Below, piece by piece: positions 33,227 through 54,187 of a DNA stretch of 64,000 bases. Source of the DNA: a virus. The stretch covers positions 37,565 through 101,564 of IMG/VR virus record IMGVR_UViG_3300028384_001071. One strand, written 5' to 3'. The stretch's first letter is position 1; the number at the start of each line of letters is the position of its first letter. The position numbers and the translations under genes are program-made. The notes beneath the pieces are model-generated. The model did not search any database. It was not told where the DNA came from and saw only the letters and a list, made by a program, of their open reading frames with translations.

Positions 33227-33284
33227 AGGGCCGGAGTCGATGGGTTATCGATGCTACTGAATCCCACCGACAACAACATGCCCT
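33227..33284 (+). ncRNA. Minimal Y-RNA-like hairpin A (normal orientation)
   Basis: AGGGC-CGGA-GTCGATGG-GTTATC...CCCACCGAC-AACAACAT-GCCCT. Confidence 0.7.
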
Positions 33285-33290
33285 AACTTT

Positions 33291-33420
33291 GAAGAGGTAG
33301 GCAACACGGTTAGCCGCGAGTAGTGTAGACCATGACATCAACATTCCCGCCATGCGGGACGGCGTCTATGGATTATCAATAAGGAACTCGTGTATGTTGG
33401 TTCGAATCCAACTCTCTTCA
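33291..33420 (+). ncRNA. tRNA-like RNA B with permuted Y-like helix in the anticodon loop
   Basis: Acceptor GAAGAGG/TCTCTTC-A; D-arm; stem CGAGT/ACTCG; T-arm GTTGG-TTCGAAT-CCAAC; insert TGTAGAC...CAACAT-TCCCGC-CAT-GCGGGA-CGGC-GTCTATG-GATTATC. Confidence 0.7.
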
Positions 33421-33422
33421 CT

Positions 33423-33486
33423 TGCGGGTCGATGTATGACGGTTATCTTTTGGGAAGCTAGTCCCGTCAACACAACTATATCCGCA
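33423..33486 (+). ncRNA. Minimal Y-RNA-like hairpin C (normal orientation)
   Basis: TGCGGGT-CGA-TGTATGACG-GTTATC...CCGTCAACA-CAACTAT-ATCCGCA. Confidence 0.7.
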
Positions 33487-33490
33487 TCCT

Positions 33491-33611
33491 GTCAACGTAG
33501 TGTAATGGAAGCACGCTAAATCATGGTCTCCGACATATGCCTTCTGGGCCGGATGGAAGATCGTTATCGAATTAAAATCGAGTAGTCTAGGTTCGAATCC
33601 TAGCGTTGGCA
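33491..33611 (+). ncRNA. tRNA-like RNA D (UAA anticodon loop) interrupted by a 50-nt permuted Y-like module
   Basis: Acceptor GTCAACG/CGTTGGC-A; D-arm GTGT/GCAC; T-arm CTAGG-TTCGAAT-CCTAG; removing 33518-33567 gives CTCGA-ATTAAAA-TCGAG. Confidence 0.75.
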
Positions 33612-33633
33612 TCCCGAGGTCTCGGGTCTTGAA

Positions 33634-33709
33634 GGCGGGTTGGAGTAGTCTGGCTTATCTCGTCAGGTTTTGATTCTGAAGATCGTAGGTTCGAATCCTA
33701 CACCCGCTT
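33634..33709 (+). tRNA. tRNA-Gln(UUG)
   Basis: Cloverleaf with anticodon arm TCAGG-TTTTGAT-TCTGA; no encoded CCA. Confidence 0.8.
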
Positions 33710-33715
33710 CTATAT

Positions 33716-33790
33716 CGCAGGTTGGAGAAGTCGGGTCATCTCACTTGGCTCATAACCAAGAGATCGTGGGTTCGAATCCCACACCTGCTA
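33716..33790 (+). tRNA. tRNA-Met(CAU), initiator-like
   Basis: C1:U72 mismatch; CTTGG-CTCATAA-CCAAG; T-arm GTGGG-TTCGAAT-CCCAC. Confidence 0.88.
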
Positions 33791-33794
33791 TTAA

Positions 33795-33868
33795 GGGCGA
33801 GTAGCTCAACTGGGAGAGCATCCGGTTTGCAACCGGAAGGTTGCGGGTTCAAGTCCCGCCTCGGTCCA
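33795..33868 (+). tRNA. tRNA-Ala(UGC)
   Basis: TCCGG-TTTGCAA-CCGGA; G3.U70 present; one bulged G in the acceptor stem. Confidence 0.85.
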
Positions 33869-33870
33869 TT

Positions 33871-33934
33871 CGATCCCATTCAGTGCGTAACTGTTATGCT
33901 CGTAAATTCATCGAGCCGGAGGCGATCGGTTATC
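33871..33934 (+). ncRNA. Circularly permuted Y-like module E
   Basis: CGATCCC...TAT-GCTCG-loop-CGAGC-CGGA-GGCGATCG-GTTATC. Confidence 0.6.
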
Positions 33935-34006
33935 TACGAAATTCAAACTGAGGTAAGTAGATTGAAGAATGACTATGGTTAAACGTGGTGTGGGCAACCA
34001 CCAATT

Positions 34007-34055
34007 CGATTGTCGATGACATACCCGCCTGTCGGGTCGGACGATAATCGTTACC
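34007..34055 (+). ncRNA. Circularly permuted Y-like module E2
   Basis: CGATTGTCG-ATGACAT-ACCCG-CCTGT-CGGGT-CGGA-CGATAATCG-TTACC. Confidence 0.65.
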
Positions 34056-34089
34056 CTACGAAAAGCCCACGGGTCGCAAGGCCCAACAC

Positions 34090-34161
34090 TGTACGATAGC
34101 TTAATGGTAAAGCGTCCGGCTGTTAACCGGGTGACTGTAGGTTCGAGTCCTACTCGTACAG
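34090..34161 (+). tRNA. tRNA-Asn(GUU)
   Basis: Acceptor TGTACGA/TCGTACA-G; TCCGG-CTGTTAA-CCGGG. Confidence 0.9.
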
Positions 34162-34169
34162 CTACTTCT

Positions 34170-34264
34170 GGAACCGTTGCCTGTTGGTAGGCACCTGATT
34201 CTCATAACATGCCAAATAGGCCGGAGAGCATTAGTTATCGTTGGTTCGATTCCAATCGGTTCCA
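34170..34264 (+). ncRNA. tRNA-like RNA F whose anticodon arm is a permuted Y-like helix
   Basis: Acceptor GGAACCG/CGGTTCC-A; D-arm GCCT/AGGC; CTGATTCTC-ATAACAT-GCC-AAATA-GGC-CGGA-GAGCATTAG; TTATC as variable loop; T-arm GTTGG-TTCGATT-CCAAT. Confidence 0.8.
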
Positions 34265-34334
34265 CTGACGGCTTCTGTCTGACTTATGACTCACCATACC
34301 TGAGCAAATAGTCCACAGAAGCCGTCCAATACAA

Positions 34335-34430
34335 TTCGATGGTGGTAACTCGCTGGGAGCGGGCAGCGTACGATCTGGATGATCATTCGTGGAGCAAAGA
34401 AGCAGGTTCGATTCCTGCACCAACATCGAA
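34335..34430 (+). ncRNA. Degenerate tRNA-like element
   Basis: Long closing stem TTCGATG-G-TGGT/ACCA-A-CATCGAA with T-arm GCAGG-TTCGATT-CCTGC; no canonical anticodon arm. Confidence 0.5.
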
Positions 34431-34495
34431 GTAGGTAGTCGTGCCATTTCCGAAGCATGGCCACGCAATCTGAAACATAGTGCGACTACCGCCAC

Positions 34496-34566
34496 GGTCC
34501 TAAGGTGTTATGGTAGCATGACTGGTTGTCTACCAGTTGGCCGGGGTTCGACTCCCCGTAGGATCG
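34496..34566 (+). tRNA. tRNA-Asp(GUC)
   Basis: Acceptor GGTCCTA/TAGGATC-G; ACTGG-TTGTCTA-CCAGT. Confidence 0.85.
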
Positions 34567-34644
34567 CTTGGCCTTTGCTAAGGTTAGCAATATCTGCGAA
34601 ACCCTTTGAAAGCATCGGTCCCCATTTCCAAAAGGAACCATGAG

Positions 34645-34785
34645 ATGCAGTGTATTACTGTTGAAGCCATCATCGCAGAACTTCGAGAGATCAAGGATAC
34701 TGTCGATGGTGAACCGGGTCAGGCGAAAGCCAAGATCGAAACACTGATGAACATCCTTGAACGCTCCGAGCGGTCATGTGCGTAA
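34645..34785 (+). CDS. Small hypothetical protein (46 aa) inside the RNA array
   Basis: AAGGA RBS; MQCITVEAIIAELREIKD...ERSCA, an amphipathic helical hairpin. Confidence 0.45.
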   Translation: MQCITVEAIIAELREIKDTVDGEPGQAKAKIETLMNILERSERSCA

Positions 34786-34865
34786 GGCGACCGTGATTTC
34801 ACACATCTCGGAAAGCCTGTCACCGTAAACCTGAATGTGTGCAGGGAATGAAGGTGACACTTTGT

Positions 34866-34971
34866 AGGGCCGGATGATTGATGGTTATCGCTGCCAAACC
34901 TTAGCGACGGTGGAGAGGCCACGTAATGGGTTCGATTCCCACGTTAATCCCGTCATTCTCTAACATGCCTT
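34866..34971 (+). ncRNA. Y-RNA-like RNA G (normal orientation, internal T-loop hairpin; YrlA-like)
   Basis: AGGGC-CGGA-TGATTGATG-GTTATC...TGGG-TTCGATT-CCCA...CCGTCATTC-TCTAACAT-GCCTT. Confidence 0.75.
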
Positions 34972-35103
34972 ACTTTCTATGAATGAAATCCCAGATGAGT
35001 TCAGCGGTACGCTGAGCAACAGATGAAGAAGATCAGGAGGCAGCACTGCTCGCAGTGGCAGCCCCTGATCTATATTGCATCGAATATCTCTTGAGAGTCT
35101 TCA

Positions 35104-35283
35104 ATGATTCGATTCATAGCCGTCAACCCTAACGGGCAACTGATTGACAGCACTTTAAGATGTCAAGAGCAATCTTCAAGAACCGCACTGCTAGCATATC
35201 TCGCAGTTCGAGATGAGAGGTGGGATGACCTAGTCGCGGAAGGCTGGTCCATCAAAGAAGTCACTATCACTCTGGCCGAATAA
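35104..35283 (+). CDS. Small hypothetical protein (59 aa)
   Basis: MIRFIAVNPNG...EGWSIKEVTITLAE; its stop abuts the Ro60 RBS. Confidence 0.5.
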   Translation: MIRFIAVNPNGQLIDSTLRCQEQSSRTALLAYLAVRDERWDDLVAEGWSIKEVTITLAE

Positions 35284-35294
35284 GGAGAATATCC

Positions 35295-36881
35295 ATGCCA
35301 GCAGGAAACCTCGCGAAGCACGTATCAACCCGCCGAACACCTCAAACCCAACGGTCACAACCTGATGAGGTTGTGAACAACGCAGGTGGATTCGTCTTCC
35401 AACTCGACAAGTGGAAGCGTCTGGAACGCTTCCTGATCCTCGGCTCAGACGGCGGGACTTATTACGCCAATGAGCGAGATCTAACCATCGACAATGCACA
35501 AGTCATCAACGACTGTGCTTCCGAAGATGGACGTAAGACAGTTGATGTCATCTGCGAGATTTCGCAGGCCGGACGAGCACCGAAGAACGACCCAGCCATC
35601 TTCGCGATGGCAATGCTCGCAGGTTATGCCGATGACAATACTCGCAAGTATGCACTTGCGAATCTGAACCGAGTGTGTCGTATCGGTACACACCTCTTCC
35701 AGTTCGTCGATGCTGTCGAGAACTTCCGAGGATGGGGACGTGGACTGCGTAGAGCAGTCGGAGCGTGGTACACGGACAAGGATGCCAATCGACTGGCATA
35801 CCAAGTTACGAAGTACCAACAACGAGGTGGCTGGTCACACCGGGATGTACTCCGGTTGGCACACCCAGTCACTGAGAACGCCGAACTAACCGATGTCATC
35901 AAGTATGCAGCCGGGAAGTCCCATGATGGGACTAACCGCCTGATTGAAGGCGTCGAAGAAGTAAAGCGAGCGGGTAGTGCCAGCGAAGTGGTTCGGCTCA
36001 TTACCGAATATGGCCTCGTCCGAGAGCATGTACCAACCGAATGGTTGGGTGACGTGCAGGTGTGGGAAGCTCTCGTCGAGAAGATGCCAATCACTGCGAT
36101 GATCCGGAACTTGGGTAAGATGACCAGCAATGGTCTCCTCACTCCGATGAGCAACGCAGCGATGAAGGTCATCGCCAATCTTCGCGACGTCGAGAAACTG
36201 CGGCAGGGACGGGTACACCCGCTCGCTGTTCTTACCGCAATGAAGGTTTACTCTCAAGGTAAGGGAATCCGTGGCAGCCTGTCTTGGACACCTGTCAGTC
36301 AGATTTCCGATGCCTTGGACGACGCCTTCTATGCTTCGTTCGGAGTGATCGAGCCAGCCAATAAGCGGACGCTGATTGGTCTCGATGTGTCTGGATCAAT
36401 GTACGGAGGTTGGGGTGGTGATATCCAAGGAAGCCCACTCTGTGCAGCAGAAGCCTCAGCCGCAATGGCAATGGTTTCTGCAAGAACCGAGCCGTTCTTC
36501 CAGTTGATGGCTTTCTCCGATACGTTCCGTGACGTTACGTTCGGGGCCAAGTCAAGACTGGATGATGTACTTTCACGAACACGAAATATGACCTTCGGTT
36601 GTACTGACTGTTCACTTCCAATGATCTATGCGTCGGAGAACAACATTGATGTTGACACGTTCATGGTGCTCACCGACAGTGAGACGTATGCCGGAAGTAT
36701 CAAACCTCACCAAGCAATCCAACAATATCGTCAGAAGACGGGCATCCCTGCGAAGCTCGTTGTCGTCGGTATGACAGCGACCGGATTCAGCATTGCTGAT
36801 CCGAACGATGCCGGAATGCTTGATGTAGTGGGGTTTGACACGGCCGCTCCAAACATCATTTCCGACTTCTCGCGAAGCTAA
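35295..36881 (+). CDS. rsr: Ro60/TROVE-domain RNA-binding protein
   Basis: NNAGGFVF, RFLILGSDGGTYY, TKYQQRGGWSHRDVLRLAHP, MPITAMIRNLGKMT; vWA MIDAS DVSGSM, TDCSLPM, TDSET; GMLDVVGFD. Confidence 0.95.
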   Translation: MPAGNLAKHVSTRRTPQTQRSQPDEVVNNAGGFVFQLDKWKRLERFLILGSDGGTYYANERDLTIDNAQVINDCASEDGRKTVDVICEISQAGRAPKNDPAIFAMAMLAGYADDNTRKYALANLNRVCRIGTHLFQFVDAVENFRGWGRGLRRAVGAWYTDKDANRLAYQVTKYQQRGGWSHRDVLRLAHPVTENAELTDVIKYAAGKSHDGTNRLIEGVEEVKRAGSASEVVRLITEYGLVREHVPTEWLGDVQVWEALVEKMPITAMIRNLGKMTSNGLLTPMSNAAMKVIANLRDVEKLRQGRVHPLAVLTAMKVYSQGKGIRGSLSWTPVSQISDALDDAFYASFGVIEPANKRTLIGLDVSGSMYGGWGGDIQGSPLCAAEASAAMAMVSARTEPFFQLMAFSDTFRDVTFGAKSRLDDVLSRTRNMTFGCTDCSLPMIYASENNIDVDTFMVLTDSETYAGSIKPHQAIQQYRQKTGIPAKLVVVGMTATGFSIADPNDAGMLDVVGFDTAAPNIISDFSRS

Positions 36882-54123: not shown

Positions 54124-54147
54124 GCCCGCCGTACGGGGCGGGCGTTT
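54124..54147 (+). terminator. Possible terminator
   Basis: GCCCGCC-GTACGG-GGCGGGC-GTTT. Confidence 0.5.
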
Positions 54148-54187
54148 CGCCGGATGGTTAACGCAGGTTCGATTCCTGCACGGCGAA
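54146..54187 (+). ncRNA. tRNA top-half mimic (acceptor stem plus T-arm)
   Basis: TTCGCCG-GATGGTTAAC-GCAGG-TTCGATT-CCTGC-A-CGGCGAA. Confidence 0.5.

What the first reader, a model, noticed from the sequence alone, without database searches (positions are those of the whole stretch)
34170..34264. Natural tRNA-Y RNA chimera: open acceptor end, Ro helix as anticodon arm, GTTATC at the variable loop
Seen: a clean 7-bp acceptor with discriminator A, plus D- and T-arms. The anticodon stem extends into the bulged helix, and the conserved TTATC sits exactly at the 5-nt variable-loop position. The 5' strand contains CTCATAA, identical to a Met anticodon loop. Known: in YrlA the ends are at the Ro stem and the acceptor-like stem is loop-closed, so this is the opposite permutation. 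Inference: a potentially chargeable Y RNA and a plausible intermediate between tRNA and Y RNA.
Basis: partly seen in the sequence, partly recalled or inferred. Interest (0 to 1): 0.85.

Follow-up and report, generated by a model that had tools for sequence, protein, structure and literature searches.

The report
tRNA-shaped Y RNA beside phage Ro60
A phage gene encodes a small RNA that is built like a tRNA but carries a Ro60-protein docking helix where the anticodon arm should be; the same unreported layout sits next to Ro60 genes in many bacteria, which bears on how Y RNAs arose from tRNAs.

Summary
Window 34170-34264 (+) folds as a cloverleaf: a perfect 7-bp acceptor stem, discriminator A, D arm and canonical T arm. 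The anticodon loop is replaced by a loop-closed bulged helix. Rfam's tRNA model scores it 36.4 bits (cut-off 29) with a 27-nt insert.

The helix carries GCCGGA-N8-GUUAUC. This motif occurs five times in the window against 0.03 expected, always in a tRNA/Y-RNA array about 1 kb upstream of an intact Ro60 gene on the same strand. It matches the YrlA Ro-site motif (GNCGAA…YUAY). The gene order is tRNA order, the reverse permutation of published YrlA.

The layout is not a one-off. A covariance model of it finds over 100 full-length elements next to Ro60 genes in phage, metagenome and bacterial contigs. All seven acceptor pairs covary, and CCA is often encoded. In one phylum sample, 8 of 8 Ro60-positive genomes have one beside Ro60, against 1 of 113 Ro60-negative genomes.

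The Met-like CUCAUAA is part of the conserved Ro-helix strand and is probably coincidental. Charging is untested and looks unlikely by known identity rules. No expression data could be obtained. Verdict: a new variant of a known kind, of high interest.

The parts
34170..34176 (+). Acceptor stem, 5' strand (GGAACCG)
   Evidence: 7/7 Watson-Crick pairs with 34257-34263. Aligned to the acceptor helix by Rfam tRNA and by models R1 and R2.
34179..34192 (+). D arm (GCCU / GUUGGU / AGGC), containing GG
   Evidence: The loop is only 6 nt, and G stands where A14 is usual.
34195..34203 (+). Upper stem of the Ro helix, tRNA-5' side (CUGAUUCUC)
   Evidence: Best ungapped partner of 34226-34234 within +/-140-260 nt, 8 of 9 pairs. 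Aligned to the covarying helix 3 of R2.
34204..34210 (+). Internal-loop strand AUAACAU; overlaps the 'Met-like' CUCAUAA at 34201-34207
   Evidence: (U)AACAUGCC recurs at 33275-33282 and 34961-34969 in other modules.
34211..34221 (+). Distal stem GCC/GGC closed by the loop AAAUA; it closes the Ro helix where YrlA has its free ends
34219..34239 (+). Ro-site strand GGC-CGGA-GAGCAUUAG-UUAUC: a variant of YrlA GNCGAAN0-1G, followed by YUAY at the variable loop
   Evidence: One of 5 copies of GCCGGA-N8-9-GTTATC in the window, against 0.03 expected. The motif definition is from PMC4201824.
34240..34256 (+). T arm (GUUGG / UUCGAUU / CCAAU)
34257..34264 (+). Acceptor stem, 3' strand (CGGUUCC) plus discriminator A; no CCA is encoded
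   Evidence: None of the five phage tRNAs encodes CCA either. No alternative closing hairpin exists on either side (at most 4 of 7 pairs).
35295..36881 (+). Phage Ro60/Rsr gene (528 aa), presumed protein partner, 1031 nt downstream on the same strand
   Evidence: Pfam TROVE 6e-47 and vWA_Ro60 5e-64. Full-length homologues at 46-67% identity.
33227..34973 (+). The array that contains the element: 5 tRNAs (Gln, Met, Ala, Asn, Asp) interleaved with at least 7 Ro-site modules, in three topologies

Best explanation
34170-34264 encodes a phage Y RNA laid out in tRNA order. It has an open 7-bp acceptor stem plus D and T arms, and its anticodon arm is replaced by a loop-closed, bulged Ro60-binding helix.

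Proposed mechanism:
1. (Inferred) It is transcribed with the neighbouring tRNAs as one precursor.
2. (Inferred, from its tRNA determinants and from M. smegmatis YrlA) It is released by RNase P at G34170 and by host 3' processing with CCA addition after A34264.
3. (Inferred from motif homology) The GGC-CGGA / AACAU-GCC internal-loop helix docks the phage Ro60 encoded 1 kb downstream.
4. (Speculative) The tRNA-like body seals both ends against exonucleases and offers a tRNA-shaped surface to an effector. That effector could be host PNPase, as for other Ro60-Y RNA particles, or a tRNA-binding enzyme.

It is a minimal member of a previously undescribed, widespread tRNA-order class of Ro60-linked RNAs. 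It lacks the linker and the extra hairpin that most members have. Canonical YrlA is the circular permutation of this class.
For: Structure of the element:
- Rfam tRNA 36.4 bits, above the cut-off of 29; cloverleaf minimum-free-energy fold.

Ro module:
- GCCGGA-N8-9-GTTATC occurs 5 times against 0.03 expected, all on the + strand within 33230-34889.
- The paralogues share only the motif and their stems differ, as expected under structural selection.
- The same motif heads canonical-order YrlA-like RNAs in 26 viral loci.

Context:
- An intact Ro60 gene lies 1 kb downstream on the same strand.

The class:
- Model R1, built from a single element beside a Ro60 gene, found 14 or more full-length tRNA-order elements at 55-72 bits.
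- In 14 such elements 97% of cells pair, against 35-49% when slid. All 7 acceptor pairs and all 9 upper-stem pairs covary.
- An independent set of 77 from bacterial genomes gives 93.7% pairing, with the acceptor helix at 96.4%.
- Of 134 distinct long hits, 101 have 7/7 acceptor stems, in 55 loci. Of these, 97 lie on the Ro60 strand and 29 loci hold a single copy. CCA directly follows the discriminator in 20, against about 1.6 expected.
- In three whole genomes the only hits lie beside Ro60.
- In 121 genomes of one phylum, 8 of 8 TROVE-positive genomes have a hit within about 2 kb of the gene, against 1 of 113 TROVE-negative genomes.

The element against the class models:
- All five helices align to the family model R2, at 41.7 bits.
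- Two more tRNA-order modules in the same array score 65.2 and 52.0 bits.

Precedent:
- M. smegmatis YrlA is cut by RNase P and receives CCA in vivo (PMC4201824).
- A phage Ro60 binds phage Y-like RNAs and host PNPase (PMC12135203).
Against: - There is no expression, end-mapping or binding evidence of any kind.
- No orthologue of this particular element was found, so its own conservation is unshown.
- Under R2 it scores no better than the ordinary tRNAs of the array (Asn and Ala, 44 bits). The model score alone does not separate it from a tRNA.
- Its tertiary core is non-canonical: a 6-nt D loop, G where A14 is usual, and U15/C48 instead of a purine-pyrimidine Levitt pair. There is also a C.U mismatch in the upper stem.
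- The Ro motif reads GCCGGAG, not the published GNCGAA.
- Both covariation alignments were fitted to the model's structure, which inflates pair counts somewhat.
Confidence: 0.75

Rival explanations
1. It is a decaying, non-functional paralogue. A module of the array kept a foldable shape by chance or recent origin but is no longer used.
For: - Non-canonical tRNA core: 6-nt D loop, no A14, no Levitt pair, and a C.U mismatch.
- The R2 score (41.7) is the lowest of the three tRNA-order modules of the array.
- No orthologue was found to show purifying selection on it.
Against: - All five helices are intact, with a perfect acceptor stem.
- It shares only motif-level similarity with its paralogues. 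The copies are therefore old, yet stems and motifs persist.
- Forms with no extra hairpin, where UUAUC runs straight into the T arm, also occur in other phages.
Confidence: 0.12
2. It is not an independent RNA. The whole array acts in cis as a structured leader or sponge of the Ro60 operon, for example by titrating Ro60 for autoregulation, and this unit is never excised.
For: - The array is dense, and no promoter-like or terminator-like sites separate it from Ro60.
Against: - The interleaved tRNAs must be excised by RNase P and 3' nucleases, and the element carries the same determinants.
- It sits 7 nt after tRNA-Asn, with tRNA-like spacing.
- Class members in bacteria often encode CCA.
Confidence: 0.08
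3. It is a decoding tRNA (tRNA-Met) interrupted by an intron that is spliced out.
For: - Rfam's tRNA model matches it with an insert in the anticodon loop.
- CUCAUAA is identical to the loop of the array's tRNA-Met.
Against: - No deletion regenerates a 5-bp stem with a 7-nt loop and a variable loop of 4 nt or more. This was checked by hand on the sequence: using CUCAUAA as the loop leaves a 2-nt variable region.
- The insert (27-30 nt) is far too short for a group I or II intron, going by established knowledge.
- The insert is the Ro module shared by four other copies.
- The 'Met loop' aligns with CUCUAAC in the paralogue at 34950-34969.
Confidence: 0.03

Closest known systems
YrlA Y RNA (Rfam RF02553; Chen et al. 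2014, PMC4201824; Wang et al. 2018, 10.1101/312249)
   Same: A Ro-site motif on the strand that leads into YUAY at the variable loop, followed by the T arm. A tRNA-like D/T/acceptor body. A gene within a few kb of Ro60 on the same strand, often among tRNAs and in phages.
   Different: YrlA has its 5' and 3' ends in the Ro helix and a loop-closed acceptor-like stem; it is described as a circularly permuted tRNA. Here the ends are in the acceptor stem and the Ro helix is loop-closed. The YrlA model does not match the element. The motif reads GCCGGA rather than GNCGAA.
Mycobacterium smegmatis YrlA after processing (PMC4201824)
   Same: A 7-bp acceptor stem opened by RNase P with CCA added in vivo. 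It is a Ro60-bound RNA with a free tRNA-like acceptor end.
   Different: That product is two RNA pieces held together by base pairing, still with free ends in the Ro helix. Here a single covalent chain in native tRNA order would give the same shape.
Deinococcus radiodurans Yrn1
   Same: A Y RNA in which the order of the T and D arms relative to the 5' end differs from YrlA, and which has an anticodon-arm-like stem-loop (PMC4201824).
   Different: In Yrn1 the ends still form the Ro helix. It has no full D arm and no open acceptor stem.
Thermus phage phiLo Yrl1/Yrl2 with phage Ro60 (PMC12135203)
   Same: Phage-encoded Ro60 with phage Y-like RNAs encoded just upstream. They have a CGAA-type bulge, and binding and a complex with host PNPase were shown in vitro.
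   Different: Those RNAs are described as a 5'-3' stem flanking a bulge, that is, canonical order. No tRNA-order form is reported.
b7a-tRNA (Burroughs and Aravind 2016, as cited in 10.1101/312249)
   Same: [quoted passage not shown]
   Different: It is defined by linkage to Band-7 and RtcB, which were not found near the elements checked here. Whether it carries a Ro-site arm could not be checked, because the paper is not held.
Circularly permuted tRNA genes and two-piece tmRNA
   Same: Natural circular permutation of a tRNA-shaped RNA. Permuted tRNA genes are discussed in 10.1101/312249; two-piece tmRNA is from my own knowledge.
   Different: Those cases are permuted forms of RNAs whose standard order was known first. 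Here the standard-order form is the unreported one.

Membership tests
tRNA (RF00005), as a decoding tRNA | Rfam covariance-model score at or above the gathering score (29 bits) | tested here: met
   36.4 bits, E 1.5e-5, with permissive filters only. Missed with default filters and by ARAGORN.
tRNA (RF00005), as a decoding tRNA | 5-bp anticodon stem with a 7-nt loop (U33, anticodon, purine 37) | tested here: not met
   The loop is replaced by about 30 nt forming a bulged helix. No excision restores a canonical arm.
tRNA (RF00005), as a decoding tRNA | 7-bp acceptor stem, discriminator base, and T loop UUCRANY with G53-C61 | tested here: met
tRNA (RF00005), as a decoding tRNA | Canonical tertiary core (U8-A14, R15-Y48, G18G19, A21) | tested here: inconclusive
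   G18G19 and U8 are present. Position 14 is G, positions 15/48 are U/C, and the D loop has 6 nt.
YrlA (RF02553) | GNCGAAN0-1G Ro motif upstream of YUAY and the T arm | tested here: inconclusive
   The element reads GCCGGAG, 6 of 7 positions, then N8 and UUAUC. The same variant heads canonical-order YrlA-like RNAs that Rfam scores 31-42 bits in other phages.
YrlA (RF02553) | 5' and 3' ends pair to form the Ro helix; the acceptor-like stem is closed by a loop | tested here: not met
   The partner strand lies 16 nt upstream across the AAAUA loop. The acceptor strands are 80 nt apart, and no closing hairpin is possible.
YrlA (RF02553) | Rfam model score at or above the gathering score (69 bits) | tested here: not met
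   No YrlA match on the element even at E up to 10. The only match in the genome is a 23-bit artefact spanning the junction of two tRNAs.
YrlA (RF02553) | Encoded within about 4 kb of Ro60 on the same strand | tested here: met
   1031 nt upstream, + strand.
YrlA (RF02553) | Bound by Rsr/Ro60 | not testable with these tools
   Needs an immunoprecipitation or a gel-shift assay.
tRNA-order Ro60-linked RNA (class defined here by model R2) | All five helices in tRNA order, with the Ro motif in the 3' strand of the extended arm | tested here: met
   Full-length R2 alignment at 41.7 bits. However, ordinary tRNAs reach 44 bits by skipping the arm.
tRNA-order Ro60-linked RNA (class defined here by model R2) | Conserved D arm GUAGCUCAnnGGuAGAGC, the YUAAAAC linker, and a hairpin between UUAYC and the T arm | tested here: not met
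   The element has a divergent D arm, a 2-nt linker and no extra hairpin. It is a minimal variant.
Metazoan Y RNA (RF00019) | Match to the Rfam model; terminal stem with a bulged C | tested here: not met
   No RF00019 match in 33300-35000 at E up to 10.

The most novel reading that the evidence does not exclude
tRNA-order Y RNAs are the ancestral form. A tRNA acquired a Ro60-binding hairpin, and canonical YrlA arose from tandem copies by permutation through duplication.

These RNAs are matured like tRNAs, and many encode CCA. Some still carry a hairpin with an anticodon-loop signature (CU-NNN-AA). Some may therefore be aminoacylated or enter tRNA pathways while tethered to Ro60. That would link Ro60 directly to tRNA surveillance or repair, or to translation, in bacteria and phages.
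Probability: 0.2. Interest if true: 0.9.

Novelty: new variant of a known kind. Interest (0 to 1): 0.78.

Why it matters
Bacterial Y RNAs are described as circularly permuted tRNA mimics with a closed acceptor stem. Their origin is modelled from dimeric tRNA transcripts (10.1101/312249). A natural, non-permuted form has three consequences.

- It gives that model a concrete precursor: open acceptor stem, frequent encoded CCA, and the Ro site in the anticodon arm.
- It may explain why YrlA searches found few candidates in delta-proteobacteria (PMC4201824). In the phylum sampled here, whose name the tool did not give, every Ro60-positive genome had a tRNA-order element beside the gene.
- It makes long-standing questions directly testable. 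Are Y RNAs matured, CCA-tailed or even charged like tRNAs? What does the tRNA-like module recruit?

For phages, it shows Y RNAs embedded as processing-compatible units inside tRNA arrays. It also flags a class that annotation pipelines either miss or would call odd tRNAs.

Tried and rejected
Searches that found nothing or were unavailable:
- Close relatives of the phage: megablast of the array against phage records found nothing. The Ro60 peptide scan of viral contigs found nothing, and neither did an exact 30-mer of the element. A primase search found only remote phages.
- Literature: Burroughs and Aravind 2016, Sim et al. 2020 and Sim and Wolin 2018 are not held. No supplements are held for Chen 2014. 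Prior description of tRNA-order Y RNAs therefore cannot be fully excluded, although full-text searches found none.

Analyses that were uninformative:
- MAFFT alignments of the tRNA-order elements mis-aligned the Ro helix. I used a single-seed model and model-based alignment instead.
- My first descriptor scan was noisy when it allowed 6 of 7 acceptor pairs. A stricter version followed.
- The promoter and terminator scan told nothing.
- No RtcB or CCA-adding enzyme was found in the phage record.
- Genes next to class members are heterogeneous, with no RtcB or Band-7.

Rejected readings:
- The tRNA-Met-with-intron reading.
- The Rfam YrlA 23-bit hit at 33764-33819, which is only the junction of tRNA-Met and tRNA-Ala.
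- The reading of the element as two halves of adjacent canonical YrlA units; no closing acceptor hairpin exists on either side.

Full report
**Setting.** The window is bases 37565-101564 of a 101.5-kb IMG/VR virus record, about 86% complete. No close cultured relative was found. Positions 33634-34567 hold five tRNA genes on the + strand: Gln, Met, Ala, Asn and Asp. An intact Ro60/Rsr gene follows at 35295-36881 (+), with TROVE 6e-47 and Ro60-vWA 5e-64. It is 46-50% identical to the Ro-like proteins of Gordonia, Microbacterium and Mycobacterium phages.

**The observation.** Reading 34170-34264 base by base confirms each element:
- a 7/7 acceptor stem (GGAACCG/CGGUUCC) with discriminator A;
- a D arm (GCCU-GUUGGU-AGGC);
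- a T arm (GUUGG-UUCGAUU-CCAAU);
- between D and T, a 40-nt arm: a 9-position upper stem with 8 pairs and one C.U mismatch (CUGAUUCUC/GAGCAUUAG), an asymmetric internal loop (AUAACAU opposite CGGA), and a 3-bp GCC/GGC stem closed by AAAUA;
- UUAUC in the five-base variable-loop position.

RNAfold returns this cloverleaf as the minimum-free-energy structure, at z = -2.05. With permissive filters, Rfam's tRNA model matches the whole element at 36.4 bits (cut-off 29) and skips 27 nt in the anticodon loop. ARAGORN and the default filters miss it. No CCA is encoded, but none of the phage's five tRNAs encodes CCA either.

**Why the arm is a Ro-site module.** Chen et al. 2014 define YrlA by four features: a GNCGAAN0-1G motif near the 5' end, a YUAY that begins the variable loop, then the T arm, a closed acceptor-like stem and the D arm.
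- The element reads GGCCGGAG-N-GUUAUC and then runs directly into the T arm.
- GCCGGA-N8-9-GTTATC occurs five times in the 64-kb window against 0.03 expected. All five copies are on the + strand between 33230 and 34889.
- The opposite strand of the helix ends in (U)AACAUGCC in several copies.
- Beyond these motifs the copies share no sequence, and each upper stem pairs with its own partner. That is the pattern expected of paralogous structured RNAs.
- The same motif, followed by GGTTCGA, hits 26 loci in IMG/VR. Most of these are canonical-order YrlA-like units, in arrays with tRNAs and beside Ro60, which the Rfam YrlA model scores 31-42 bits.

**Topology.** In the element, the partner of the Ro-site strand lies upstream across a five-base loop. 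The acceptor strands lie at the two ends. Neither acceptor strand can form a closing hairpin with its flank (at most 4 of 7 pairs). The unit therefore cannot be read as parts of two adjacent canonical YrlA units.

The array holds other topologies as well:
- canonical-order hairpins without a tRNA body at 33227-33284 and 33423-33486;
- a canonical-order unit with a T arm at 34864-34973;
- two further tRNA-order units at 33291-33420 and 33491-33611.

**Is tRNA order a real class?** A descriptor search picked out a single clean element 78 nt downstream of a Ro60 stop codon in a metagenome contig, L064:6641-6766. I built a covariance model from it alone (R1).
- Over 777 kb of Ro60-linked loci, R1 gave 14 or more full-length matches at 55-72 bits.
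- In their alignment, 97.2% of cells pair, against 35-49% when partners are slid. All seven acceptor pairs and all nine upper-stem pairs show compensatory changes.
- A family model (R2) was run on 80 independent loci from bacterial genome assemblies. It found 77 matches at E up to 1e-8. These pair at 93.7% overall and 96.4% in the acceptor helix.
- Pooled, there are 134 distinct long hits. Of these, 101 have 7/7 acceptor stems, in 55 loci. Among the 101, 97 lie on the Ro60 strand and 29 loci hold a single copy. CCA follows the discriminator in 20, against about 1.6 expected.
- Rfam's tRNA model scores these elements 37-53 bits with a large insert. Its YrlA model does not match them.
- In three whole genomes of 5-9.5 Mb, the only hits lie beside Ro60.
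- In 121 genomes sampled from one phylum, 8 carry TROVE. All 8 have a hit on the same contig within about 2 kb. Only 1 of the 113 others has a hit, and it is a weaker one.

Caveats: the alignments were fitted to the model's structure. In tandem arrays both topologies can sometimes be drawn; L017 is an example.

**The element against these models.** With filters off, R1 gives 32.8 bits and R2 gives 41.7 bits, and all five helices align. It lacks three features typical of the class: the conserved D-arm sequence, the YUAAAAC linker, and the hairpin between UUAYC and the T arm. Ordinary tRNAs of the array reach 44 bits under R2 by skipping the arm. Membership therefore rests on the Ro motif and the architecture, not on the score. 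Forms with no extra hairpin, where UUAUC runs straight into the T arm, exist in canonical order in other phages.

- CUCAUAA at 34201-34207 is indeed identical to the tRNA-Met loop. It lies in the conserved internal-loop strand, where the paralogue at 34950-34969 reads CUCUAACAUGCC. No deletion restores a Met anticodon arm. I regard the identity as coincidental.
- Chargeability is untested. Known anticodon-independent identity sets need G3:U70 (Ala) or a long variable arm (Ser). The element has A3-U70 and a five-base variable loop. G3:U70 is not conserved in the class either (2 of 14).
- The tertiary core is also atypical: G at position 14, U15/C48, and a six-base D loop.

**Literature.**
- Wang et al. 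[quoted passage not shown] They discuss an origin from dimeric tRNA transcripts.
- Chen et al. 2014 show that M. smegmatis YrlA is opened by RNase P and given CCA in vivo. They note that few YrlAs were found in delta-proteobacteria.
- A 2025 study shows a phage Ro60 binding phage Y-like RNAs and host PNPase.
- I found no description of a native tRNA-order Y RNA. Three relevant papers could not be read, including the one that defines b7a-tRNA.

**Conclusion.** The element is best explained as a Y RNA in tRNA order, a minimal phage member of a widespread and apparently undescribed class. The architecture, the Ro-motif homology, the linkage to Ro60 and the class-level covariation are shown. Processing at the acceptor ends, Ro60 binding and any effector role are inferred. 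Expression data could not be obtained.

Noticed in passing
window 33491-33611 (+): A second tRNA-order module (R2 65.2 bits). It also keeps a hairpin with an anticodon-arm look: stem AUCGA/UCGAG, 7-nt loop AUUAAAA, ending 4 nt before the T stem. It could be read as a tRNA(UAA) with a Ro module inserted between the D arm and the anticodon arm.
   Followed up: partly
loci L004, L054, L058, L081, L105, L023, L017, L067, L002 and others (alignment A6): In about 15 class members, the hairpin between UUAYC and the T arm has a 5-position stem and a 7-nt loop of the form CU-NNN-AA. It ends 4-5 nt before the T stem, which is anticodon-arm geometry. Among the 29 scorable cases, U33 is present in 21 and A37 in 20. 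The 'V arm' of YrlA-type RNAs may be a vestigial anticodon arm.
   Followed up: partly
window 33291-33420 (+): A third tRNA-order module (R2 52.0 bits; ARAGORN calls it a tRNA with a 57-nt intron). An intact 5-bp anticodon stem (CGAGU/ACUCG) encloses a Ro hairpin with the variant motif GACGGC…AUUAUC.
   Followed up: partly
window 33227-33284 and 33423-33486 (+): Two minimal Y-RNA-like hairpins in canonical order, with no tRNA body: lower stem, CGGA or GUCGAU bulge, upper stem, and UUAUC at the start of the apical loop.
   Followed up: partly
window 34864-34973 (+): A canonical-order module with a 7-bp terminal stem (GUAGGGC/GCCUUAC) and an apical domain containing a T arm. Its 3' strand (CCGUCAUUCUCUAACAUGCC) is the closest paralogue of the element's 5' strand.
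   Followed up: partly
window 33905-34075 (+): A module in which the stem next to CGGA is a local hairpin on the 5' side (GCUCG…CGAGC). The upper-stem partner lies about 80 nt downstream at 34006-34014 (9 of 9 pairs, counting G-U). This would be a third topology.
   Followed up: no
window 34267-34326 (+): A perfect 12-bp stem (GACGGCUUCUGU/ACAGAAGCCGUC) with a structured 36-nt top, starting 2 nt after the element's discriminator. It has no Ro motif, and its function is unknown.
   Followed up: no
window 34338-34427 (+): A tRNA-like sequence with a canonical T arm and a long extra arm. It matches the tRNA-Sec model only weakly (21.9 bits against a cut-off of 47), and no anticodon could be assigned.
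   Followed up: no
window 35272-35301 (+): GGCCGAA…CAUGCC brackets the Shine-Dalgarno sequence and the ATG of Ro60, in the same GGC-CGAA / CAU-GCC arrangement as the modules. The stem is only 3 bp.
   Followed up: no
window 54146-54187 (+): An intergenic mini tRNA-like element just after a GC-rich hairpin. It has a 7-bp acceptor-like stem (UUCGCCG/CGGCGAA), a 10-nt linker and a canonical T arm (GCAGG-UUCGAUU-CCUGC). It has no D arm or anticodon arm.
   Followed up: no
L052 (metagenome contig FSTQ01000409.1): Here the Ro60 gene is embedded in an array of more than 30 tRNA genes, with a tRNA-order Y RNA 141 nt downstream of Ro60.
   Followed up: no
window 33230-34889, the five motif copies: The spacing GGCCGGA-N8-9-GUUAUC recalls the 5' strand of human Y1 and Y4 RNA (GGUCCGA-N9-GUUAUC). 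That comparison is from memory and was not checked. Rfam's Y_RNA model gives no match here.
   Followed up: no
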